A program made the position numbers and the translations under genes. From Verrucomicrobiota bacterium (GTDB lineage: Bacteria; Verrucomicrobiota; Verrucomicrobiia; JABWAM01): DNA of 64,000 nucleotides. The notes beneath the pieces were generated by a model, which saw only the letters and a list, made by a program, of their open reading frames with translations, did not search any database and was not told the origin of the DNA. The stretch spans positions 1 through 64,000 of the forward strand of contig JAHFSY010000015.1 in the NCBI GenBank assembly GCA_023269615.1, read 5' to 3'. Positions 560-51,779 of the stretch are shown here, piece after piece; position 1 is the stretch's first letter, and every line of letters starts with the position of its first letter.

Positions 560-3466
560 ATGATAACCGATCAACCTTCCGGCCAGATGAGTCTCAGCGG
601 TGTGGATCCCCTGCATGCGGCGGAGTTTCACATCACCAAGCGCAACGGACGGCGTGATCTTTTCAACGAGGAGCGTATTTATCTGGCGATCGAGAGCGCT
701 TTCAAGGCGGAGGCTGGGGTGACGGATGCCCGCGAACTTTCAGCCGCCGAAGCCGAGCATGTGCGTGTCACGGGTGAGAAGGCGGTCAACCTTGCCCTGG
801 GCAAGCTGGTGCATGGTGAGCGGGTGCAGGTGGAGCAGATTCAGGACATCGTGGAGGCGCAGTTGATGGCCGATGGTCATCATTCGGTGGCACGCCGCTA
901 CATTTTGTATCGCGAGGAGCGCAAGAAGGCCCGCCTGACTCCCATCGCTCCCATGGCGGATGGGGTGCCTGCGGAGGCGGCTTCCAGGGAGGCAACGGCG
1001 GATGGTTTGGAACCTGTCCAGACTGCCGCCCCCGAGTTCATCACGCATCGTGATGGCTCGAAGCAACGATTCGACGCCGACCGCATCCTGCGCGCGGTGG
1101 AGAGCGCTTGCAAGGGATTCGAGGACAGGGTGTCTGCGAAGGAGATTGTCGCGGAGTCCATCAAGAATTTGTACGAGGGCGTCAGCTCGGCGGAAATTGA
1201 CAAGTCCAACATCATGGCCGCCCGCGCACGCATCGAGCGCGAGCCCGTCCACACGCACGTGGCTGCGCGCCTCCTGCTGCAGATCATTTACCGCGAGGCG
1301 CTGCCGCAGGGCGATGTCGCGCAGACGCACGCCGCTCATTTCAAGGATTATCTTGCCGAGGGCGTGAAGCTGGGCAGGCTTTCGAAGGACCTGCTTGATT
1401 TTGACCTCAAGAAAATCGCCGGCGCGATGAAGACCGAGCGCGACATGCAGTTCACGTACATGGGTCTGCAGACACTCTATGACCGCTACCTCATCCACCA
1501 GGGGCAGCGCCGCGTCGAGACGCCGCAATATTTCTGGATGCGTGTTTCCATGGGCCTCGCCTTGCGCGACAGCGCGCCGCGGGAGGATCGCGCGATCGAA
1601 TTTTACGACACGCTTTCACAGTTCCGCTTCATCTCGTCCACGCCCACGCTGTTCAATGCAGGCACCCTGCATCCGCAGCTGAGCTCCTGCTACCTTTCGA
1701 CGGTGATGGATGACCTCGATCATATTTTCAAGGTGGTGTCCGATGATGCCAAGCTTTCGAAGTGGGCGGGCGGACTTGGCAATGACTGGACGAACATCCG
1801 CGCCACGGGAGCCTACATCAAGGGCACCAACGGTGAAAGCCAGGGCGTGATTCCATTCCTCAAGGTGGCCAACGACACCGCGGTGGCTGTCAACCAGGGC
1901 GGAAAGCGCAAGGGCGCGATGTGCGCGTATCTTGAGACGTGGCACCTGGACATCGAGGATTTCATGGAGCTGCGCAAAAACACCGGCGACGAGCGCCGCC
2001 GCACGCACGACATGAACACGGCGAACTGGATCCCCGATCTCTTCATGAAACGCGTGGCTGCCAAGTCCCACTGGACGCTTTTCAGCCCGAGCGAGACGCC
2101 CGACCTGCATGATCTCTACGGCGCGGCCTTCGAGAAGCGTTATCACGAATATGAGGCGATGGCTGAGCGCGGCGAATTGCGTCAGGCCAAAAAGATCGAG
2201 GCGATTTCACTGTGGCGCAGGATGCTCTCGATGCTGTTTGAGACGGGGCATCCATGGATCACGTTCAAGGACCCATCCAACATCCGTTCGCCGCAGGACC
2301 ATGCCGGCGTGGTGCACAGCTCCAATCTTTGCACGGAAATCCTCCTCAACACGTCGAAGGACGAGACCGCGGTGTGCAATCTAGGCTCGGTGAACCTGCT
2401 CGCGCACACGACCGAGAAGGGACTCGACGAGAAGCTTGTTGCGAAGACCGTCAAGACGGCCATACGCATGCTCGACAACGTGATTGACATCAATTTTTAC
2501 CCGACGCCCGAGGCGCATGCGGCGAACATGCGGCATCGCCCTGTCGGGCTGGGCGTGATGGGATTCCAGGACGCGCTCTACAAATTGCGCATCAGCTACG
2601 CGAGCGAGAAGGCGGTGGAATTCGCCGACCGCAGCATGGAAATGATCTCCTACTACGCGATCCTGGCCTCGACGGAGCTTGCGAAGGAGCGGGGGCCGTA
2701 CCCGAGCTTCCCCGGCTCAAAGTGGGACAAGGGCCTGCTGCCGATTGACACGCTGGATATTCTTGCGCGCGAGCGCGGCGGATTCTTTTTCGTGGACCGT
2801 TCCACCTCGATGGATTGGACCGTCGTCCGCAAGGCGCTGAAAAAGCACGGCATGCGCAACAGCAACACGATGGCGATCGCGCCGACGGCCACGATCTCAA
2901 ACATCACCGGCGTGGCGCAATCCATCGAGCCCACGTACAAGCATCTCTTCGCCAAGTCGAATCTCTCGGGCGAATTCGCGACCCTGAACACCTTCCTTTT
3001 CGAAGACCTCAAGGCGCTCAACCTATGGGACGCGGAGATGATCGACGACCTCAAGCATTTCGACGGAACGATCATGGACATCGAGCGCATTCCGCTCGAG
3101 CTCAAGGAGATTTACGTGACGGCGTTTGAGATGGATCCCAAGTGGCTCATCGAGTGCGCGAGCCGCCGCCAGAAGTGGATTGATATGGGCCAGTCTCTGA
3201 ATTTGTATCTCGCCGCGCCCAGCGGAAAGAAGCTGCACGACATGTATTTTCTGGCGTGGGAAAAGGGGCTCAAGACGACCTACTATTTGCGCACCCTCGC
3301 TGCGACGCAGATTGAGAAATCCACCATGGACGTCAACCGCCGCGGCATCCAGCCGCGCTGGATGAAAAACAAGTCCGCGTCCAGCAACATCGCCGTGCAG
3401 CGCGTCCCCTCGCCGCAGCCCAAGGCGTGCAGTCTCGAGGATCCCACGTGCGAAAGCTGCCAATAA
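560..3466 (+). CDS. nrdA: Class Ia ribonucleoside-diphosphate reductase alpha subunit with N-terminal ATP-cone(s)
   Basis: ORF 425-3466. Internal ATG at 560 chosen as start. ATP-cone motifs ([24 protein letters not shown]; [22 protein letters not shown]). Catalytic-site NLCTEI motif and C-terminal CESC redox tail. The overall layout parallels E. coli NrdA. Confidence 0.9.
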
Positions 3467-5495: not shown

Positions 5496-6191
5496 TCAAC
5501 TTTTGCCCTTTGCCTCTTGCCCTTTGCCTTTTGCCTTCACGTCCGATTTCTCCGCATCCGCCGCGCGCCAGAGATACCAGGCCGCGAGCGTGCGATGGGG
5601 CGCCCAGCGTTTGGAATGCTCTCGAAGCACGGACGGCTTGGGCATGTCGTCAAGTTTCATCGCGACGCGGAAACCGTTGCGCACGCCAAAGTCATCGCAG
5701 GGGAACACATCCTTCCGCCCCAATGTGAAGATGAGGAGCATTTCCACCGTCCAGCGGCCCACGCCATGAACCTCGATGAGGCGGGCGATGAGTTCATCGT
5801 CGCTTAGCTTTATCGCTTTCGCACGGGTGGGCACCAGGCCGCTTTGAGTTTTCTCCGCAATGTCGCGAATCGCCCGGATTTTTCCAAAGGAGAATCCGGC
5901 GCTGCGCAACTTTTTGTCGCTCGCCGTCATGATGTGCGCTGGTTTTGGGAAGCGCGTGCCGGGGAACAACGCCTTGAATCGACGCAGGATGGACTGGGCC
6001 GCCTTGCCGTTGAGCTGCTGATGCGCGACTGCGTTGACGAGAGCCTCATAAGGCGAGCGCTTCTCGGCGACGAGATCGCACGGCCCATGCGTCTTGATGA
6101 GGCGGCGCATGATCTTGCAGCGGTTCGAAAGATGGGATTCAGCTTTGGAGGACATCTGCGACTTAAACCACAGGCGTCCGGAAATCACCAC
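5496..6191 (-). CDS. HhH-GPD family DNA glycosylase (3-methyladenine glycosylase II / AlkA-like)
   Basis: Helix-hairpin-helix GPD motif region HGVGRWTVEMLLIFTLGRKDVFPCDDFGVRNG. The true start may be internal, possibly near 6110. Confidence 0.75.
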   Translation of the reverse strand: MVISGRLWFKSQMSSKAESHLSNRCKIMRRLIKTHGPCDLVAEKRSPYEALVNAVAHQQLNGKAAQSILRRFKALFPGTRFPKPAHIMTASDKKLRSAGFSFGKIRAIRDIAEKTQSGLVPTRAKAIKLSDDELIARLIEVHGVGRWTVEMLLIFTLGRKDVFPCDDFGVRNGFRVAMKLDDMPKPSVLREHSKRWAPHRTLAAWYLWRAADAEKSDVKAKGKGQEAKGKS

Positions 6192-6234
6192 CTTGATCTG
6201 TTCCCTTCGTTGCGCTCAACGGGTGAGGTCGTCG

Positions 6235-6510
6235 CTACTTCTTTTTCATGGAGTTGATCCACTCCTCCATGTCCGCCGTCTTCTTCTTCATATTGTCCAA
6301 ACTCGGTTCCTCAACAAGCGGTTCGATGGTGATTTTAACAACCTCAAATTGAGTGCCAGGAGGGTGTCCCTCCACCTGCTCGACGGCATTCAGGGCCTTG
6401 ACCTGCCGCTCCGCCTCCTCAAGAAGGGTATTCAGATGTTTGAAATCCGGAACATTCTTTCCCACGGCCCTCAATCCGTAAAGGATCACTCTCCTGACAG
6501 AAGTGCTCAT
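6235..6510 (-). CDS. Hypothetical small protein
   Basis: The track ORF 6235-6774 runs upstream into a MITE copy. Its N-terminal about 88 aa are MITE-derived, so I trimmed the gene to the internal Met (MSTSVRRVILYG...). No recognisable domain. Confidence 0.3.
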   Translation of the reverse strand: MSTSVRRVILYGLRAVGKNVPDFKHLNTLLEEAERQVKALNAVEQVEGHPPGTQFEVVKITIEPLVEEPSLDNMKKKTADMEEWINSMKKK

Positions 6511-6561
6511 GGTGACAACATACGCCCCTTGCAGACCCTCGTCAACCACGCCTCCCCAAGC

Positions 6562-6695
6562 CTTACGCATTTGGAGTGGGCGTGGAATTGCTGTTGGCGG
6601 CCTTGTGTCTTTTGCGCCTCTTTGCGGCCAATCATTGCGCTCGATGCTTGGGAATATGGCCACGAAGAGGCACAAGAAGCGCAAGAATGACGAGC
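6562..6695. mobile_element. MITE-like element, family C, copy 1 (right end truncated or diverged)
   Basis: Left TIR cttacgcatttgga. Internal palindrome ttgtgcctctttgcggcca / tggccac(g/a)aa(g/a)aggcacaa. Aligns with the copies at 7726-7888 and 28274-28437. Confidence 0.6.
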
Positions 6696-6737
6696 TGCCC
6701 GTGTGCGAACGACCTTGGGCGTGACGCGGGAACCGCT

Positions 6738-7136
6738 TCAATATTGATGGTAAATCTTGCTTACAATTTTCCATCCGTCGCCAAATTTGTATAAAAACTG
6801 GTAATCCAGGTAGGCAAGCTTGGTGCCTACATAAAATTCGAATTTGGCAACGGCGGCCTTGCCAGTGACATCCACCATCAGAAATTTGATGGATACACGA
6901 TCATCCTCCTTCCGTGGAAGTTTACCCGCGTCCTTGCTTGATTTAACCGCTTCCTTCCATGCGGGTAAGGAATACTTTTGCATCTCGCTTCCATTTCCCG
7001 GGATGAGAAGTTCGAAGCCGGGATGCATGCCCTGGTCGATCTTAGAAAAATCGCCTTCGTTTTGAAGCCCCTCGACATAGGCCGTTTGGATCGTTTTTTT
7101 GATCAGCTCAACTTCAGCCTTTTCGGTGTCATTCAC
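6738..7136 (-). CDS. NTF2-like/SnoaL-like small protein (putative lumazine-binding family)
   Basis: A 132-aa protein whose composition and length fit the NTF2-like fold (VDVTGKAAVAKFEFYVG...WKIVSKIYH). Family assignment is by resemblance only. Confidence 0.45.
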   Translation of the reverse strand: MNDTEKAEVELIKKTIQTAYVEGLQNEGDFSKIDQGMHPGFELLIPGNGSEMQKYSLPAWKEAVKSSKDAGKLPRKEDDRVSIKFLMVDVTGKAAVAKFEFYVGTKLAYLDYQFLYKFGDGWKIVSKIYHQY

Positions 7137-7144
7137 GGTGTTGG

Positions 7145-7648
7145 TTATTTGGAGGGTGGAGCGACTTGAGACTTCTTGTCTTCATTTCTGATATACGGCC
7201 ATTCGGTGATTTTCCCGCGTGTATCAACCACACGCACGCCCGCGTGATGTGAACCGTCGTTGGGAAGTGTCGCCTCACGTCTGTAAATATATAAGTGCAA
7301 ACCGAAATCATCAAATCCTCCAGTCCAGTTCATCCATATACAGTCGTCGTCAACCCAGACATAATATGGATTCAGCGAAACCAGTTGTGCTGGCCATTGT
7401 TTGCGATCTATCGCCGTATTCGACGGTTTGATTGTCTTGTATAAATTAACGCAACTCTCAAAGAGATCGCGCCAATCCTCAGGACGGTATGCCGTCATGA
7501 TTTGAGTGGCTTGCTGAATTTTCTTCTCATGAAGCGCATTGCTAGAAGCAAATGTGAGCCACGCCATTCCTACTCGTGCAACAAAAACAAATACGCACAA
7601 AATCAAAAGACTCCCACCTGCGAACGCCAAAATCTTTAGAGTTTTCAC
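7145..7648 (-). CDS. Hypothetical membrane-anchored protein (low-GC gene)
   Basis: N-terminal TM helix (ILAFAGGSLLILCVFVFVA). GC is around 45%, well below the flanking sequence. Confidence 0.45.
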   Translation of the reverse strand: MKTLKILAFAGGSLLILCVFVFVARVGMAWLTFASSNALHEKKIQQATQIMTAYRPEDWRDLFESCVNLYKTIKPSNTAIDRKQWPAQLVSLNPYYVWVDDDCIWMNWTGGFDDFGLHLYIYRREATLPNDGSHHAGVRVVDTRGKITEWPYIRNEDKKSQVAPPSK

Positions 7649-7725
7649 AAATCGAACCGTTCCTACTTTAGGTCCATCAGCCCCTTTTCACAACTAGGAT
7701 CTCAAGCTCTTTATGTCCATCAGGG

Positions 7726-7888
7726 CTTACGCATTTGGACTCAGAGGTTCTTCCAAATCTGGATGCGGGGTGGTTGCCTTGTGCTTTTTGTGCCTCTTTG
7801 CGGCCAATCCGTCTGCTCGGCACGCGGAAAATGGCCACAAAAAGGCACAAGAGGCACAAAAATGACGAGCCGATTCCAAATGCGTAAG
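7726..7888. mobile_element. MITE-like element, family C, copy 2 (complete, about 163 bp)
   Basis: TIRs cagggcttacgcatttgga / tccaaatgcgtaagccctg with an internal palindromic core. An additional solo TIR fragment (caaatgcgtaagccctgtta) sits at 8065-8084. Confidence 0.65.
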
Positions 7889-8126
7889 CCCTGTTATGTC
7901 CATCTGGACATCTGTCGCAATTTCAAATTTTATGCATGTGCTCGTAAGAGTAACTAGGGTTGCCGATCGCCGTAGACGCCCCTGTTGCGTTGCGCAACAT
8001 AAGGCGTCGGAGGCGCTCGGCAACCCCTTCGCCCATCGATCAACCTGAGTCGTTGCCGCTTTTTCAAATGCGTAAGCCCTGTTAAGAACTTGAACTGACC
8101 CTGTCCTGTGGATAGACAGATGGGAC

Positions 8127-8831
8127 GTGCACATTTCCGTCGTCATCCCGGCCTACAATGAGGAGAAGACCATTGCGATGGTGATCCAGCGGGTGCTTGA
8201 CGCGCGTCTTGCTCCGCACCAGTGGGACATTCTTGTTGTGGATGATGGCTCGACGGATCACACGGCGGAGAAGGTGCAACCGTTTGCCAAGGACGTGCGT
8301 TTTTTTCAACACCCGCACAATCAAGGGAAAGGTCATGCCTTGCGGACGGCTTTTGCCGAGGCGCGGGGCGAGGCGGTGATCATTCAGGACGCCGACCTCG
8401 AATATGACCCGCGGGAATATTCACGTCTGATTGGGCCCATCGTGGATGGGCAGGCGGATGTGGTGTATGGGTCGCGCTTCCAGGGCGGGGATTGTCATCG
8501 CATCCTCTACTTCTGGCATTCGTTCGGGAACCGGCTGCTCACGATTTTTTCCAACATGGCGACGAACCTGAACCTCAGCGACATGGAGACCGGGTTCAAG
8601 GTGGTGCGCGCGGATTTTCTGAAGAAGATCACGATCGAGGAGAACGGCTTTGGAATCGAGCCCGAGCTCACGGCCAAACTCGCCTTGCTGTGCGCGAGAT
8701 TTTACGAGGTGGGCATCAGCTATCACGGGCGCACGTATGAGGAGGGGAAAAAAATCACGTGGCAGGATGGGGTGATTGCGATCTGGTGCATTTTCAAATA
8801 TGGAATCCTGCGGCGTCTGACGGGCGGGTGA
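8127..8831 (+). CDS. Family 2 glycosyltransferase (DPM1-like)
   Basis: VVIPAYNEE ... DDGSTDHT ... IIQDADLEYDP motifs (DxD). Confidence 0.8.
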   Translation: MHISVVIPAYNEEKTIAMVIQRVLDARLAPHQWDILVVDDGSTDHTAEKVQPFAKDVRFFQHPHNQGKGHALRTAFAEARGEAVIIQDADLEYDPREYSRLIGPIVDGQADVVYGSRFQGGDCHRILYFWHSFGNRLLTIFSNMATNLNLSDMETGFKVVRADFLKKITIEENGFGIEPELTAKLALLCARFYEVGISYHGRTYEEGKKITWQDGVIAIWCIFKYGILRRLTGG

Positions 8832-14469: not shown

Positions 14470-14789
14470 GCCATCGAGGCATGAAAGAGCCTGCCCCCTG
14501 CGGAAAGGCAGACGGGTTGCGTGAAGGACTTGAGAGACTTTCGGACTCTTTTTGCCCTTGGTGTAGAGCTGACGAGGTTAGCTGTCGGGCTAGGGCCTTC
14601 CAAGTGCCCCTGGCACACCGCAGTGCCATGCGCCCCGATCCGCCTTCGCGGAATAAGTGGGTCCCCCGCTGGCCGGACACGGCGTCCAGCCATTAAGCGT
14701 GCAAAGAACTACAGTACTAGTACCACACTTTGGACAAAGCGCAAGTGGACGGGGCGCGTAGCTGCGTTCGCAAGAACACGGCCCGAGAC

Positions 14790-17080: not shown

Positions 17081-17203
17081 GGAAGATTAAGAATCGAAGG
17101 GCGGACAAGAAAAGCAAAAGGCGAATCGGAAGCAAGGGGAAAGAGGCGCATCTGGTTTTGGAATGTAGGAGCCGCTGCCAGCGGCGATCGTGGCCCGTGT
17201 TCG

Positions 17204-19145: not shown

Positions 19146-20654
19146 ATGGCAAAACGTGCGATCATCATTGGTGCAGGGCTGGGCGGCATGGCCGCGGCGA
19201 TCCGGCTTGCCCGCGATGGCTGGAGCGTGAAGGTCCTGGAAAAGAATGTACGCGTCGGTGGGAAACTGGACTGCCACAGCGACCACGGGTTTCTCTGGGA
19301 CGCGGGGCCTTCGCTGGTGACGATGCCCTTTGTTCTGCGCGAGCTCTTCGAGTACGCGGGGCACGACGTGGAGGATTACCTGGACCTGATGCCGGTGGAT
19401 CCGATCTGCCGCTATTTTTATCCCGACCGCAAGGTGATCAACGCGTGGGCGAATTTCCATCATTTCCAGATCGAGGTGGCGCGACGCGAGAAGGACCACG
19501 GCGAGGCGCTTGAGGGTTTCCTGCGTTACGCCCGCGGCATCTACGATCTCTCGGCGGAGGCGCATCTCTTTCACCCGCCCACGAATTTCCTCGGATATTT
19601 CACGCCTCGCATTCTCCGTCACCTGCATCATCTGCCGAAGGTGCTGACGACGCGCACGATGGCCCAGGTGGTGGAGAGCCATTTCAAGGACCCCCACATT
19701 CGCCAGCTTTTCATGCGCTACGCCACGTACAACGGCTCGTCGCCCTATCGCATTCCCGCGACGTTCAACATCATTCCCTATGTCGAGATGCAAGGGGGCG
19801 GCTGGTACATCCGCGGCGGGATGTACCGCCTGGCCGAGGCGCTGGAGAAATGCGCGAGGGATCTGGGCGTGGATTTTCTCGTGGACGCCGAGGTCTCGGA
19901 AATCACGCTCAAGGAGCGCGGGCTCTTTCGCAAGCCGCAGGCGACGGGCGTGATCATCCAGGGCGGCGTCTCCATGAGCGCCGAGGTTGTGATCTGCAAC
20001 GCGGATGCGAACCATGTCTGGGCACGGCTCCTGAACACGCGGAAGAAGGCGGGCGTGACGCGCCAGAACGACCGCAAGCCATTTTCGAGCGCGCCCTTCA
20101 TGATGCTTTGGGGCGTGAAAAAGCGTTACGAGCAACTCGCGCATCACAACGTCTTTTTCTCCCCGGATTATCTCGCGGAGTTCGACGATCTTTTCCAGAA
20201 GAAGCGCCCGGCGACGGAGCCCACGGTGTACGTGTGCGTGTCATCGCGCTCCGATGCCACCCAGGCGCCGCAGGGGCAGGACAATTATTTTGTGCTGGTG
20301 AACGCGCCTGCGATCGAGCCCGACCATCATTGGGAGCGCACGCGCGAATCGTATCGCGACACGGTGCTCAACCGCCTGGAGGCGATGGGGCTGGAGGGCT
20401 TGCGGAAGGAGATTGTCTGCGAGAAGATCATCACGCCGGCTGATTTTGCCGCGCGCAACAACGCATACCGCGGGGCGATCTACGGCCACGCCACTCATTC
20501 GTTGTCGGGCGTGGTGAACCGTCCCGCCAATTGTTGCGACTGGGTGAAGGGGCTTTATTTTGTGGGCGGCTCCACGCAGCCGGGCGGCGGCATTCCGCTG
20601 GTGCTTCTTTCCGCCAAGCGCGTGGCCGAGGCCCTGGATGGCGGCGGAGAATGA
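19146..20654 (+). CDS. Phytoene desaturase-family FAD-dependent oxidoreductase (CrtI/CrtD-like)
   Basis: N-terminal dinucleotide-binding motif IIIGAGLGGMAAAIRLARDGWSVKVLEKNVRVGGK. C-terminal GGSTQPGGGIPLVLLSAKRVAEAL typical of the CrtI family. Confidence 0.8.
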   Translation: MAKRAIIIGAGLGGMAAAIRLARDGWSVKVLEKNVRVGGKLDCHSDHGFLWDAGPSLVTMPFVLRELFEYAGHDVEDYLDLMPVDPICRYFYPDRKVINAWANFHHFQIEVARREKDHGEALEGFLRYARGIYDLSAEAHLFHPPTNFLGYFTPRILRHLHHLPKVLTTRTMAQVVESHFKDPHIRQLFMRYATYNGSSPYRIPATFNIIPYVEMQGGGWYIRGGMYRLAEALEKCARDLGVDFLVDAEVSEITLKERGLFRKPQATGVIIQGGVSMSAEVVICNADANHVWARLLNTRKKAGVTRQNDRKPFSSAPFMMLWGVKKRYEQLAHHNVFFSPDYLAEFDDLFQKKRPATEPTVYVCVSSRSDATQAPQGQDNYFVLVNAPAIEPDHHWERTRESYRDTVLNRLEAMGLEGLRKEIVCEKIITPADFAARNNAYRGAIYGHATHSLSGVVNRPANCCDWVKGLYFVGGSTQPGGGIPLVLLSAKRVAEALDGGGE

Positions 20655-25400: not shown

Positions 25401-26547
25401 CAGCGAATTGCCGATTGTTCCGGAGATCAAGCTCACCACGTCGAAGGCGGATCGCTGGGTGGAACGATGGCACTTGATCTCATCCCCCGTCTGGAACATC
25501 AGCCTCGCCGGCTTGAGTCCCGTGATGGAGGCGCAGGATGACCGACTCGTGCCCGTCTGGCATCCATGGCCTGGCGAGTCGGTCACGCTGGGCATCACGC
25601 GCCCCGAAGCGGTCAACGGCCCCACGATGACGATCCATCGAGTTCATCACGAGGTGGAGCTTGGCCAACGAAACCGGAATACTTCATTGAGACTCACGCT
25701 CCAGTGCAGCGTGAGCGATGACTTGGTGGTGGGCATCGATCCATCAGCCGAAATCACGTCCGTGAAGCGGGGTGAAACCAAGATCCCGGTTCGCCGCGAG
25801 GGTGGAAAACTGGTGGTGCCGGTGCAGCCCGGGATGCAGGACATTGTCATTGACTGGAAGGAGACGACCCCATTGGGCTTTCATACTTCCCTGGGACGGC
25901 TGGAGTTGCCGGTGGAAAGCTCGAACATCACGACAATTTTACGGCCGCCCGCGAACCGCTGGATCTTGTGGGCGCATGGCCCACTCCAGGGACCTGCGGT
26001 GCGATTCTGGAGCGTGCTGGTGTGCGGATTGATCGCCGCGTGGGTGTTGGGCGGATTGCCGCTGTCGCCGCTGAGCCGAAAGCAATGGACACTGCTGATG
26101 GTGGGCCTGACCCAGATCACCTTGTTCAGCGCGCTGATCGTGGTCGGGTGGCTCTTTCTCCTGGCATACCGTGGCACGGAAGCCGCCTCCCGGGTCACGC
26201 GCTTCCGGTTTAATGTGAGGCAAATCCTGATTGTTGTGGCCACCGTCATCTCGCTGGGCATTTTTCTCGAGGTGGTTCGCGCGGGGTTGTTGGGAAATCC
26301 CAGGATGTTCATCCTGGGCAATGGTTCCAATCCGCACTCACTTGACTGGTTTGCGCCGCAATCCTCCACACAGCTTCCCCGTCCGGGAATGATTTCGGTG
26401 TCCGTCTGGTTCTACCGGTTTCTCATGCTGCTGTGGGCGCTGTGGCTGGCACACTCGCTCATCCGCTGGCTGGCGTGGGGGTGGAAACAGTTCAATGCGA
26501 ATGGTGAGTGGTATCGCTTGCTCAAGCCTCCTCCCATACCTTCTTAG
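22498..26547 (+). CDS. Large (1349 aa) signal-peptide-bearing polytopic membrane protein of unknown function
   Basis: Cleavable signal (MNRAFLFLLFLAVSTVHAQQ). Two large extracytoplasmic regions, each followed by a cluster of TM helices, and a low-complexity Gly/Ser/Gln linker around residues 590-640. No recognisable catalytic motif. Confidence 0.55.
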   Translation: MNRAFLFLLFLAVSTVHAQQRIPDPLKTWEDWATWDDPHRHCPSAFNSADKLFHYCPSELSLQAGAQGGRFSIETTVFETAWFVLPGDSDLWPLNVQDSGKPVAVVERGGRPAVRLSAGVHLIAGDYRWAELPQKIRIPLEYGILSLSVEGRPSPFPNWDTEGFLWLKQTRTDAGDKDFLDVQVYRLIEDGIPMWLHTILELSVSGKSREVELGNILPEGWSISSVESPIPVAVDDDGKARAQVRAGKWQIHMRAFRTTHSEDFKMKDGAPSIVEKELVGFKADPELRMLDVRNATPVDATQTTFPEMWRAWPVYQWNTKAALTLVEKMRGSGLQSPKSMSGARELWLNETGRGYTYQDHLAGQMQSIWRLDVAPSLQLGSVKVNGEGQLITRDPKTRAAGVEIRSRNIRLDAVGTSATMRAIPATGWDAGLDSLTLTLNLPPGWRLFALFGADTVEGDWLTSWTLLDLFLLLIFSLAIYRIWGIGPGVIAFLAFGLTYHEPESPRYAWFVLLMPLALLKVIPEGKMRKVISVWKYAAFVYLLLVLVPFTYRQVQSVIYPQLELERGGRVVTSLGQRDGFNASPQPGAATAASAPDQQDDEGSMQRQSSGESYGRGSGFLGINMSGKGGKPRMQSNMRYEAKARIQTGPGVPEWHWRYAVCRWHSPVSSSQNITPILIPPLVRRILTLAGLALVFWLIAKLLEIKRASIPWNRGRSSAALMIGLCFFLGGSRASAQEIPDKETLETLKLRLLKPSDSYPHGAEIPSVNLQIREDRISFEAQIDAAIQVVVPLPGKLPAWSPVRVQLDGKPNAAVRREDGYLWVVVPEGVHHVKVEGMLPGTSEWEWSFLLKPRTVRLDAPGWNVTGLKPDGTPESQIFFARKQTGGEKRDATYDRREFHTLAVVDRVLEIGLTWQIHNTVTRLSAPGKAISLKIPLLDGEQVLSSGVTPTERNVEVSLASNQASFSWDSELPIVPEIKLTTSKADRWVERWHLISSPVWNISLAGLSPVMEAQDDRLVPVWHPWPGESVTLGITRPEAVNGPTMTIHRVHHEVELGQRNRNTSLRLTLQCSVSDDLVVGIDPSAEITSVKRGETKIPVRREGGKLVVPVQPGMQDIVIDWKETTPLGFHTSLGRLELPVESSNITTILRPPANRWILWAHGPLQGPAVRFWSVLVCGLIAAWVLGGLPLSPLSRKQWTLLMVGLTQITLFSALIVVGWLFLLAYRGTEAASRVTRFRFNVRQILIVVATVISLGIFLEVVRAGLLGNPRMFILGNGSNPHSLDWFAPQSSTQLPRPGMISVSVWFYRFLMLLWALWLAHSLIRWLAWGWKQFNANGEWYRLLKPPPIPS

Positions 26548-26634
26548 CGTGTCCGGAAAATAGCACATCGAGGTAGGGACGGACCGCCGGGCCGTCCGCT
26601 GCGCAACGGCGCGCCCGGCGGTCACGCCCTACCA
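26548..26634. repeat. REP-like element, family B variant
   Basis: cgtgtccggaaaatagcacatcgaggtagggacggaccgccgggccgtccgct...ggcgcgcccggcggtcacgccctacc. Nearly identical to 51657-51741. Confidence 0.7.
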
Positions 26635-28199: not shown

Positions 28200-28273
28200 G
28201 GGGTGTCCGTATTTCGAGGTAGGGCGCGATCGCCGAGCGCGCCGCATCGGTTGTTCCCGGATGTAACCCAGAG

Positions 28274-28437
28274 CTTACGCATTTGGGTTTGGCAATCATA
28301 TCGGCCCGTCATTCTTGTGCTTCTTGCGCCTCTTCGCGGCCATATTCCCACTCACCGAACGCAGAAATTGGCGGCAAAGAGGCACAAAAGGCACAAGGCG
28401 GCCAACAGCAGCTCCATAACCTCTCCAAATGCATAAA
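28274..28437. mobile_element. MITE-like element, family C, copy 3
   Basis: cttacgcatttggg ... tccaaatgcataaaccct TIRs with the same palindromic core. It is inserted next to a family-B REP half-site. Confidence 0.6.
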
Positions 28438-28627
28438 CCCTCCTGGGATGTGACCTTGCTCGTGCCCTCAAAATACCCTACATTGTCATCAGAATGATTC
28501 ACATCCTCGACGAAGAACCCGCAGCTGAAGTTCACCAAGCCGCCATCCTCAGCGAAGGATCGCTGGCCCAGGATTGGAACCGTCCAGAGGAGGATGCCGC
28601 GTGGTCACACCTTCAGCCGTCTCGGTA

Positions 28628-50146: not shown

Positions 50147-50222
50147 CTACCTTTGCGCTTCAGTTGCCGGGGGTAGGGCGCGCTCGCCGAGCGCGCCGTC
50201 AGGAACAAGGACTGTCCACTTT

Positions 50223-51587: not shown

Positions 51588-51656
51588 TCCAAACGGAGGG
51601 ACACGCTCCGTCGTGTCCATGACTGCAGAGAGTAGCCCAGACTCAACGCTCAGAGC

Positions 51657-51741
51657 GTGTCCGGAAATTCAGCATTCGAGGTAGGGACGGACCGCCGGGC
51701 CGTCCGCTACGCAGCGGCGCGCCCGGCGGTCGCGCCCTACC
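51657..51741. repeat. REP-like element, family B variant
   Basis: Nearly identical to 26548-26634. Confidence 0.7.
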
Positions 51742-51779
51742 ATGAGCAAGCAACTTACTTTCCGGACACACTCTCAGGA

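What the first reader, a model, noticed from the sequence alone, without database searches (positions are those of the whole stretch)
6200..8130. Low-GC patch with copies of a 160-bp MITE (TIR cttacgcatttgga) and small orphan genes
Two copies and a solo TIR sit within 1.6 kb (6562-6695, 7726-7888, fragment 8065-8084), plus a third copy at 28274-28437. All share the terminal inverted repeats and an internal palindrome ttgtgcctctttgcggcca / tggccacaaaaaggcacaa. The element contributes N-terminal coding sequence to at least one predicted ORF (6235-6774). Its ends abut gene starts (hypothetical at 6510; GT2 at 8127), so it may donate promoters. The patch between alkA and the GT2 gene carries AT-rich orphan genes (7145-7648 is about 45% GC).
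Basis: seen in the sequence. Interest (0 to 1): 0.5.

Follow-up and report, generated by a model that had tools for sequence, protein, structure and literature searches.

The report
ISAs1-type MITE copies in Verrucomicrobial contig
The repeats are real copies of a small non-coding "jumping" DNA element (a MITE). Its ends and 10-bp insertion footprint match the ISAs1 family of insertion sequences, so this is an ordinary kind of mobile DNA that I have now tied to a family.

Summary
Three 161-177-bp copies and one solo end are present: A 6557-6717, B 7721-7893, C 28269-28445 (inverted), and a solo end at 8063-8081. They share the end sequence CAGGGCTTACGCATTTGGA and a long internal hairpin, far above chance.

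New evidence supports transposition. Copy B has perfect 19-bp terminal inverted repeats and a perfect 10-bp target-site duplication (TTATGTCCAT). Copy C has a 9/10 duplication.

The same 19-bp ends bound two 1.78-kb elements in other metagenomes (L066, L050). These encode an ISAs1-family transposase (NCBIfam NF033564, E=1e-121). L066 also has a perfect 10-bp duplication. Published ISAs1 hallmarks are inverted repeats starting CAGGG and a 10-bp direct repeat. The element is therefore a MITE with ISAs1-type ends, presumably mobilised in trans.

- Other small elements with the same ends but unrelated interiors occur in Gammaproteobacteria, Anaerolineales and cyanobacteria-like contigs.
- The low-GC patch is real: 46% against 58% for the window.
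- A composite transposon is not supported, because B has its own duplication.
- The "N-terminal coding" contribution looks like a gene-calling artefact.
- Promoter donation is untested.
- Genome-wide copy number could not be measured.

Verdict: a new member of a known kind, of modest interest.

The parts
6557..6717 (+). MITE copy A (161 bp). An old, decayed copy: the left repeat is CAAGCCTTACGCATTTGGA, the right repeat is degenerate (12/19), and there is no recognisable target duplication.
7721..7893 (+). MITE copy B (173 bp). Intact: perfect 19-bp terminal inverted repeats CAGGGCTTACGCATTTGGA at 7721-7739 and 7875-7893. The central hairpin lies at about 7779-7859.
7711..7720 (.). Left copy of the 10-bp target-site duplication TTATGTCCAT of copy B.
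   Evidence: read directly
7894..7903 (.). Right copy of the 10-bp target-site duplication TTATGTCCAT of copy B (10/10).
   Evidence: read directly
8063..8081 (-). Solo terminal repeat (CAGGGCTTACGCATTTGAA, 18/19) in right-end orientation, 45 bp upstream of the GT2 start. No partner or element body is recognisable.
28269..28445 (-). MITE copy C (177 bp), inverted relative to A and B. Its ends are CAGAGCTTACGCATTTGGG and CAGGAGGGTTTATGCATTTGGA.
   Evidence: (I1: 133 nt, 83%)
28259..28268 (.). Left copy of the target-site duplication of copy C (GGATGTAACC).
   Evidence: read directly
28446..28455 (.). Right copy of the target-site duplication of copy C (GGATGTGACC; 9/10).
   Evidence: read directly
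6235..6510 (-). 91-aa orphan ORF downstream of copy A. Public annotation extends it to 111 aa by using the ATG at 6570 inside the MITE end. The mechanical ORF extends to 6774.
6738..7648 (-). Low-GC two-gene patch bracketed by copies A and B. It holds Lumazine_bd_2 (6738-7136, GC3 0.53) and a 167-aa rare-family protein (7145-7648, GC3 0.46).

Best explanation
These are copies of a miniature inverted-repeat transposable element (MITE). It is a 160-180-bp non-autonomous DNA transposon with no transposase gene of its own. It sits in a metagenome contig that is probably from a Verrucomicrobiaceae bacterium.

Its 19-bp terminal inverted repeats (CAGGGCTTACGCATTTGGA) are the binding and cleavage sites of an ISAs1-family DDE transposase made elsewhere, in trans. 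Integration at a 10-bp staggered cut leaves a 10-bp target-site duplication.

Shown here:
- the repeats, the duplications and the lack of coding capacity;
- identical ends and the same duplication length on transposase-encoding ISAs1 elements in other metagenomes.

Inferred:
- a matching transposase exists or existed in this genome;
- copy B is or recently was mobile, while copy A and the solo end are dead relics;
- the GC-rich internal hairpin is a structural passenger feature, typical of MITEs, with no specific function demonstrated.

The element has landed repeatedly in intergenic DNA around a compositionally foreign two-gene patch. It did not carry that patch in as a unit.
For: Repeats are far above chance.

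Copy B has perfect 19/19 terminal repeats and a perfect 10/10 flanking duplication, chance about 1e-6. Copy C has a 9/10 duplication.

No transposase is present in the window: the best tblastn hit is E=0.008, inside an unrelated FAD oxidoreductase gene.

A metagenome scan for the 17-mer end found L066 1525-3310 and L050 900-2684. Both are about 1.78 kb and bounded by the same 19-mer. L066 is flanked by a perfect 10-bp duplication, TGGCGTGAGG.

Their 403-aa ORF matches NCBIfam NF033564 (transpos_ISAs1), E=1.4e-121, and Pfam DDE_Tnp_1_assoc plus DDE_Tnp_1.

Literature: ISAs1 inverted repeats are 14-22 bp starting CAGGG, with a 10-bp direct repeat (PMC11946415). ISArsp11 has CAGGGCTGATGCAAAGTCG and a 10-bp direct repeat (PMC6305408).

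Annotated ISAs1 elements on plasmids have ends CAGGGCAATCGCATC (Thiodictyon, with a perfect 10-bp duplication), CAGGGGAAACGCATC (ISAsp2) and CAGGGCAAACGCATC (Stanieria). These share the CAGGGC-NNN-CGCAT pattern with this element.

Other short elements with the same ends but different interiors exist: L007, L008, L030 and a group of about 105-125 bp.

No Rfam family matches.
Against: Only three copies and one solo end were seen, all in one 64-kb window. Genome-wide copy number is unknown.

No ISAs1 transposase was found in the window, and the rest of the genome could not be searched.

Similarity between the MITE and the full-length IS is confined to about 19-24 bp at the ends. The MITE is therefore not demonstrably a deletion derivative of that IS.

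Copies are only 80-83% identical to each other, so this is not a recent burst.

No empty site was found for comparison. Other samples carry the identical locus, and more distant relatives lack synteny.

A six-frame peptide search for spurious ORFs on further copies found nothing.
Confidence: 0.87

Rival explanations
1. A MITE-bracketed composite (cassette) transposon. Copies A and B, or the left end of A with the solo right end at 8081, would act together as the ends of a 1.3-1.5-kb unit. That unit would have brought in the two low-GC genes.
For: A and B are in direct orientation. They exactly bracket the two genes with foreign composition, GC3 0.46-0.53 against 0.74-0.80 in neighbouring genes. 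The span from A-left (6557) to the solo right end (8081) is 1,525 bp, and about 1,342 bp without B and its duplication. That is IS-sized.
Against: B carries its own perfect 10-bp duplication immediately on both sides, so it inserted alone. The 10-bp flanks outside the candidate units do not match: cacgcctccc left of A, against ttatgtccat right of B or ttaagaactt right of the solo end. The right repeat of A is degenerate but recognisable, so A looks like a complete separate element.
Confidence: 0.07
2. A REP/BIME-type palindromic element, spread by a RAYT (HUH/Y1) transposase or maintained as a structural or regulatory repeat, not a DDE-transposon derivative.
For: The genome is rich in REP-like palindromes. 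GTAGGAGCCGCTGTCAGCGGCG occurs 7 times and GGTAGGGCGCGCTCGCCGAGCGCGCC occurs 5 times. One of these lies next to copy C. The element is dominated by a long hairpin.
Against: REP families here are different sequences that begin GTAG. The element has 19-bp terminal inverted repeats and 10-bp target duplications, which REPs lack. The identical ends bound DDE (ISAs1) transposase genes elsewhere.
Confidence: 0.03
3. A family of structured small-RNA genes or cis-regulatory hairpins (attenuator, terminator or sRNA) conserved for function, whose repetition only mimics a mobile element.
For: The fold is very stable on both strands, z about -11. The hairpin is kept in all three copies. The copies lie in intergenic DNA close to gene starts.
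Against: Rfam gives no match apart from sub-threshold generic miRNA-hairpin hits at 20-32 bits, against 67-107 needed. No U-tract follows the main stem. The covariation term is essentially zero, -0.31. Orientation relative to neighbouring genes varies. Target duplications and transposase-linked ends explain the repetition.
Confidence: 0.03

Closest known systems
ISAs1 family insertion sequences (ISAs1, IS1358, E. coli H-repeat/ISEc1, ISAsp2, ISArsp11)
   Same: The terminal inverted repeat is 19 bp and begins CAGGG. It has the CAGGGC-NNN-CGCAT pattern seen in annotated members. The target-site duplication is 10 bp. Elements with identical ends encode a transposase that scores as NF033564.
   Different: The window element is 161-177 bp and has no transposase. 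Its interior is a hairpin unrelated to the IS interior. The matching full-length IS (L066, L050) are 1.78 kb, longer than the 1.2-1.5 kb I recall as typical for the family. They also carry a second, divergent ~100-aa ORF. Their transposase is only about 45-49% identical to the nearest annotated plasmid-borne ISAs1 transposases.
Classical bacterial MITEs (Correia elements of Neisseria, RUP of Streptococcus pneumoniae, MaeMITEs of Microcystis, Tn3-derived TIMEs)
   Same: Small size, terminal inverted repeats, target-site duplication, intergenic location, strong self-complementarity, ends shared with an autonomous IS family, and decayed copies or solo ends alongside intact ones.
   Different: The parental family and footprint differ: ISAs1-type ends with a 10-bp duplication, instead of TA (Correia, from my own knowledge), IS630-like ends (RUP, from my own knowledge) or Tn3-type 38-bp ends with a 5-bp duplication (TIMEs, PMC4133298). 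Two full-text searches returned no paper whose title or abstract concerns an ISAs1-derived MITE. I opened only two of the listed papers, and neither links a MITE to ISAs1.
REP/BIME elements with RAYT transposases
   Same: Short, palindromic, intergenic and repeated. Such elements co-occur in this window.
   Different: REP/BIME elements lack terminal inverted repeats and target duplications and have a GTAG-led palindrome. The element studied here fails those criteria.

Membership tests
MITE (generic definition) | Small size (tens to a few hundred bp) and no transposase gene | tested here: met
   The copies are 161, 173 and 177 bp. Only short mechanical ORFs are present. tblastn with the ISAs1 transposase finds nothing real in the window.
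MITE (generic definition) | Terminal inverted repeats | tested here: met
   Copy B has perfect 19/19 repeats. Copies C and A have imperfect ones.
MITE (generic definition) | Target-site duplication flanking individual copies | tested here: met
   B is flanked by TTATGTCCAT (10/10). C is flanked by GGATGTAACC and GGATGTGACC (9/10). A has none and is decayed.
MITE (generic definition) | Multiple dispersed copies in the genome | tested here: inconclusive
   The 64-kb window holds three copies and one solo end, two loci about 20 kb apart. The exact 18-mer end picked up no contig carrying this MITE in the GTDB species representatives.
MITE (generic definition) | Ends shared with an autonomous element that encodes the transposase | tested here: met
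   L066 and L050 have an identical 19-mer at both ends and an ISAs1 transposase inside. They come from other metagenomes, not from this genome.
ISAs1 family (as non-autonomous derivative) | Inverted repeats of 14-22 bp beginning CAGGG | tested here: met
   The end is CAGGGCTTACGCATTTGGA (19 bp). The criterion comes from PMC11946415. Compare ISArsp11 and three annotated plasmid IS.
ISAs1 family (as non-autonomous derivative) | Direct target repeat of 10 bp (I recall 8-10 bp for the family) | tested here: met
   The duplication is 10 bp at B, C and L066, and at the Thiodictyon ISAs1 element. A 10-bp direct repeat is stated in PMC11946415 and PMC6305408.
ISAs1 family (as non-autonomous derivative) | A cognate ISAs1 transposase present in the same genome and able to mobilise the element | not testable with these tools
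   The window has no such gene. The remaining genome is unavailable. Mobilisation needs an experiment.
REP/BIME (RAYT-associated) | A 20-40-nt imperfect palindrome led by GTAG, no terminal inverted repeats, no target duplication | tested here: not met
   The element has 19-bp repeats and 10-bp duplications. The GTAG-led REP families in the window are distinct sequences.
Composite / MITE-bracketed cassette transposon | A single target duplication outside the two bracketing copies, and none around the individual inner ends | tested here: not met
   The outer flanks differ. B has its own perfect duplication.

The most novel reading that the evidence does not exclude
The window element may be one branch of an undescribed, cross-phylum superfamily of ISAs1-derived MITEs. 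An almost invariant 17-19-bp end ((C/T/G)AGGGCTTACGCATTTGG) is found on small elements with unrelated, hairpin-rich interiors. These occur in a Verrucomicrobiaceae-like contig, Gammaproteobacteria and Anaerolineales MAGs, and cyanobacteria-like (HIP1-bearing) contigs. The same end is found on an atypical 1.78-kb, two-gene ISAs1 subgroup (transposase plus a conserved divergent ~100-aa protein). That would imply a widely transferred transposase that repeatedly recruits new MITE bodies.
Probability: 0.4. Interest if true: 0.4.

Novelty: new member of a known kind. Interest (0 to 1): 0.25.

Why it matters
The practical consequences are modest.

- The element explains assembly breaks and a mis-called gene start at this locus. 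P0001 starts inside the element's end.
- It flags the alkA-GT2 interval as a variable, insertion-prone spot that holds compositionally foreign genes.
- It links a MITE to the ISAs1 family. My full-text searches found no described MITE for that family, whose transposition is, to my knowledge, little studied.
- The defined 19-bp end, the 10-bp duplication and the candidate transposases (L066, L050) give a ready-made substrate and enzyme pair for testing ISAs1 transposition.

It does not reveal a new kind of biological system.

Tried and rejected
(1) Genome-collection scan with the 18-mer end. It gave 6 hits and no contig carrying this MITE. L004, L005, L006 and L009 look like chance matches in coding DNA. 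In L009 the match falls in a ...GNDSGLTHLAAALG... coding stretch. Only L007 and L008 are real small elements.

(2) Viral-contig scan. It gave one chance hit inside what reads as coding sequence.

(3) Search for the specific hairpin interior among all fetched loci and in plasmids. None was found.

(4) Protein-space search for spurious ORFs on other MITE copies. With the 179-aa ORF, only the protein itself came back. With a concatenated six-frame translation of A, B and C, no hit was found.

(5) Empty-site comparison. Other samples hold the same strain with the element present; L067 differs from the window over 4.8 kb by a single 1-nt gap. The nearest AlkA homologues (74-79% identical) sit in non-syntenic contexts.

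(6) Rfam at the gathering threshold and at a permissive threshold. Only sub-threshold eukaryotic miRNA-hairpin models matched.

(7) Promoter and terminator consensus scan. Nothing inside the elements is convincing; the one terminator-like hit at 7764-7783 is a weak 8-pair stem.

(8) The weak tblastn hit of the transposase at 19241-19471 lies in a 517-aa FAD oxidoreductase and was rejected.

(9) Ten of the 56 metagenome hits are one conserved sequence found in several metagenomes (at least two are human-gut assemblies). They have identical flanks and are not elements.

(10) The ISAs1 review (PubMed 26104715) is not held in the library.
Full report

Yes. The 14-mer CTTACGCATTTGGA occurs six times in the window at <=2 mismatches, against 0.38 expected from shuffles. 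The hairpin arm TTGTGCCTCTTTGCGGCCA occurs six times at <=3 mismatches, against 0.01 expected. That is two arms in each of three copies.

Reading the sequence and aligning the copies gives corrected boundaries:
- Copy A is 6557-6717 on the + strand.
- Copy B is 7721-7893 on the + strand.
- Copy C is 28269-28445, inverted relative to A and B.
- A solo end lies at 8063-8081 in right-end orientation.

Interiors are 80-83% identical between copies. Copy B folds into an almost complete hairpin on either strand: -97.5 and -93.6 kcal/mol, z about -11.

The neighbours are as described. An HhH-GPD/AlkA-like gene lies at 5496-6191(-) and a GT2 glycosyltransferase at 8127-8831(+). The low-GC patch is real: 6718-7720 is 46.3% GC, against 58.2% for the window. 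GC3 is 0.53 and 0.46 for the two enclosed genes, against 0.74-0.80 for RNR-beta, dcd, alkA and GT2.

**2.

Extending the ends by five bases shows that the terminal inverted repeat is 19 bp, CAGGGCTTACGCATTTGGA. It is perfect at both ends of copy B.

Immediately outside B the 10-mer TTATGTCCAT is present on both sides, at 7711-7720 and 7894-7903. This is a 10/10 match, with a chance of about 1e-6. Copy C is flanked by GGATGTAACC and GGATGTGACC, a 9/10 match.

Copy A has a left end with two mismatches, a right end degraded to 12/19, and no duplication. The solo end at 8063-8081 matches 18/19 and has no body. The locus therefore holds one intact-looking element, one moderately decayed one elsewhere, one old relic and one solo end. 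That is the usual demography of a MITE family.

**3. The autonomous partner**

The window contains no transposase. tblastn with the transposase found later gives only E=0.008, inside an FAD oxidoreductase gene.

A scan of GTDB species-representative genomes with the 18-mer end returned six loci.
- Four look like chance matches in coding DNA.
- L007, a Gammaproteobacteria MAG, carries a 137-bp element with the same ends and a different hairpin interior.
- L008, an Anaerolineales MAG, carries a similar ~100-bp element.

A scan of metagenome contigs with the 17-mer returned 56 loci. In L066 (1525-3310) and L050 (900-2684) two inverted copies of the 19-mer lie about 1.78 kb apart. They enclose a ~400-aa ORF. 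A third right end sits at a contig edge in L048.

The ORF matches NCBIfam NF033564 'ISAs1 family transposase' (equivalog, E=1.4e-121, 405.6 bits against a cut-off of 70). It also matches Pfam DDE_Tnp_1_assoc plus DDE_Tnp_1. L066 is flanked by a perfect 10-bp duplication, TGGCGTGAGG.

**4. Agreement with the ISAs1 family**

The literature states that ISAs1 elements have 14-22-bp inverted repeats starting with CAGGG and make a 10-bp direct repeat (PMC11946415). ISArsp11 (ISAs1 family, 1,306 bp) has CAGGGCTGATGCAAAGTCG and a 10-bp direct repeat (PMC6305408).

I extracted the ends of three annotated ISAs1 elements from plasmids. These were the nearest tblastn hits, at 45-49% identity:
- Thiodictyon has CAGGGCAATCGCATC with a perfect 10-bp duplication.
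- ISAsp2 of Anabaena sp. 90 has CAGGGGAAACGCATC.
- Stanieria has CAGGGCAAACGCATC.

The window element (CAGGGCTTACGCATT) shares the CAGGGC-NNN-CGCAT pattern. Both defining footprints of the family are therefore met, and elements with identical ends encode the family's transposase.

**5. Mechanism**

Best explanation (confidence about 0.87): this is a non-autonomous transposon mobilised in trans by an ISAs1-family DDE transposase. The transposase recognises the 19-bp ends and integrates at a 10-bp staggered cut.

Shown: ends, duplications, absence of coding capacity, and identity of the ends with those of transposase-bearing elements.

Inferred: a matching transposase is or was present in this genome, and copy B is or recently was mobile.

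Similarity between the MITE and the IS stops after about 19-24 bp. The MITE is thus an end-sharing element and not a demonstrable deletion derivative.

The internal hairpin is conserved in all three copies but shows no meaningful covariation (term -0.31). No Rfam family matches it. I treat it as a structural feature without assigned function.

**6.

*Coding contribution.* The mechanical ORF 6235-6774(-) runs through copy A. The public gene call (P0001, 111 aa) starts MRKAWGG, at the ATG inside the left repeat of A. The stretch upstream of ATG 6510 lacks codon-position GC structure: 0.57/0.50/0.57. The protein has no homologue among 5.8 billion clusters other than itself. The likely gene is the 91-aa ORF 6235-6510, and the extension is an artefact. 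This is inference.

*Promoter donation.* The distances are right. However, the only sigma-70-like match near copy A (6545-6517, minus strand) lies in the 46 bp of flanking DNA between the element and the ATG. Nothing is predicted at the solo end. The claim is untested, and Verrucomicrobial promoters may not follow this consensus.

*Orphan genes.* This is true for the 91/111-aa protein only. The 132-aa gene is a Lumazine_bd_2 member. The 167-aa protein has 31 homologues (E<=1e-3) among 1.84 billion representatives.

**7. Composite-transposon rival**

Copies A and B are direct repeats that exactly bracket the two compositionally foreign genes. The left end of A and the solo right end are 1,525 bp apart. 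This invites the idea of a MITE-bracketed cassette.

The evidence is against it. B has its own perfect duplication, and none of the outer flank pairs match. I give it about 0.07. The simpler picture is repeated independent insertion into a variable, AT-richer intergenic zone.

**8. Source and limits**

The window is part of a 79.6-kb contig of ENA assembly ERZ27296333, and its proteins are also listed under NCBI. Identical sequence recurs in several other samples.

The best named homologues of the AlkA-like protein are from Prosthecobacter and Verrucomicrobiaceae MAGs, at about 72% identity. The organism is therefore probably a Verrucomicrobiaceae bacterium. This is inference.

The genome is not in the searchable genome collection, so genome-wide copy number could not be obtained. 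A six-frame peptide search for ORFs on other copies was negative but technically weak. No empty site could be found.

**9. Wider distribution of the ends**

Among the 56 metagenome hits:
- Ten are one conserved sequence with identical flanks, at least two of them from human-gut assemblies. They are not elements.
- At least ten loci carry paired ends: L030 is 163 bp (3143-3305). A ~105-125-bp group occurs in L015, L018, L028, L029, L033, L040 and L054. L050 and L066 are the IS.
- Several more have one good end plus a degenerate partner (L019, L065), and these carry HIP1-like GCGATCGC motifs that suggest cyanobacteria.
- L044 and L055 have the end next to GTAGGAGCC-type REP sequences like those of the window. 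That suggests related Verrucomicrobia.

The ends are thus conserved across phyla while the interiors differ. Two full-text searches returned no paper whose title or abstract concerns an ISAs1-derived MITE. I opened only two of the listed papers, and neither links a MITE to ISAs1. This is absence of evidence only.

**10. Verdict**

The finding is real and the MITE interpretation is right. It can now be assigned to the ISAs1 family through its 19-bp ends and 10-bp duplication, with candidate autonomous partners identified elsewhere.

It is a new member of a known kind. Interest is modest (0.25). The most novel defensible reading is a cross-phylum ISAs1-MITE superfamily tied to a two-gene ISAs1 subgroup (probability about 0.4, interest about 0.4 if true).

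Noticed in passing
window 5307-5328/5396-5417, 17165-17186, 30944-30965/31031-31052, 58536-58557/58600-58621: A REP-like family, GTAGGAGCCGCTGTCAGCGGCG (GTAG-led palindrome), has 7 copies against 0 expected. Most are inverted doublets (BIME-like). One doublet sits between dcd and alkA, right beside the finding.
   Followed up: partly
window 21502-21527/21577-21602, 28218-28243, 50172-50197, 51716-51741: A second REP-like family, GGTAGGGCGCGCTCGCCGAGCGCGCC, has 5 copies. One lies 25 bp left of MITE copy C. There is also an 89-nt repeat at 26546-26634 and 51654-51742, 89% identical.
   Followed up: partly
window 7957-8026: A unique 70-nt near-perfect palindrome (-50 kcal/mol) lies between copy B and the solo end. 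No other copy exists in the window. It may be the body of an older element whose right end is the solo repeat.
   Followed up: partly
window 7668-7680, 7711-7723, 7894-7903: The motif TTA(G/T)GTCCAT occurs three times, twice followed by CAG. The 33 bp at 7678-7710 begin CAGCCCC and match the terminal repeat 9/19. This may be the footprint of an earlier insertion at the same target. The target itself lies in a palindrome, ATGTCCATCTGGACAT.
   Followed up: no
L066 2906-3217(+); L050 1005-1295(-): The 1.78-kb ISAs1 elements with matching ends carry a second, divergently oriented ~100-aa ORF. It is 69% identical between the two elements and matches DUF6788 only below the Pfam threshold. From my own knowledge, ISAs1 elements are usually single-ORF and 1.2-1.5 kb.
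   Followed up: partly
L015, L018, L028, L029, L033, L040, L054; L007 2608-2744; L008 1835-~1933; L030 3143-3305; L019, L065: Other small elements (about 100-165 bp) carry the same (C/T/G)AGGGCTTACGCATTTGG ends but have unrelated interiors. They occur in Gammaproteobacteria and Anaerolineales MAGs and in metagenome contigs, some with cyanobacterial HIP1 motifs.
   Followed up: partly
window 14552-14709 (-): A c-di-AMP riboswitch (ydaO/yuaA type, RF00379) scores 59.7 bits. It is the only Rfam match at gathering threshold in the window.
   Followed up: no
L067 ~136-142, matching window ~7854-7860 (inside copy B): The only difference between the window and another sample's contig over 4.8 kb is a 1-nt gap in the alignment. 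Read by eye, it appears to be a T-run length difference inside copy B (CATTTTTGTG against CATTTTGTG). It is either strain microheterogeneity or an assembly error.
   Followed up: no
window 7145-7648 (-): The 167-aa protein with an N-terminal hydrophobic segment belongs to a rare uncharacterised family. It has 31 homologues at E<=1e-3 among 1.84 billion representatives, the best at 50% identity, and no Pfam match. Its GC3 of 0.46 is atypical and suggests foreign origin.
   Followed up: partly
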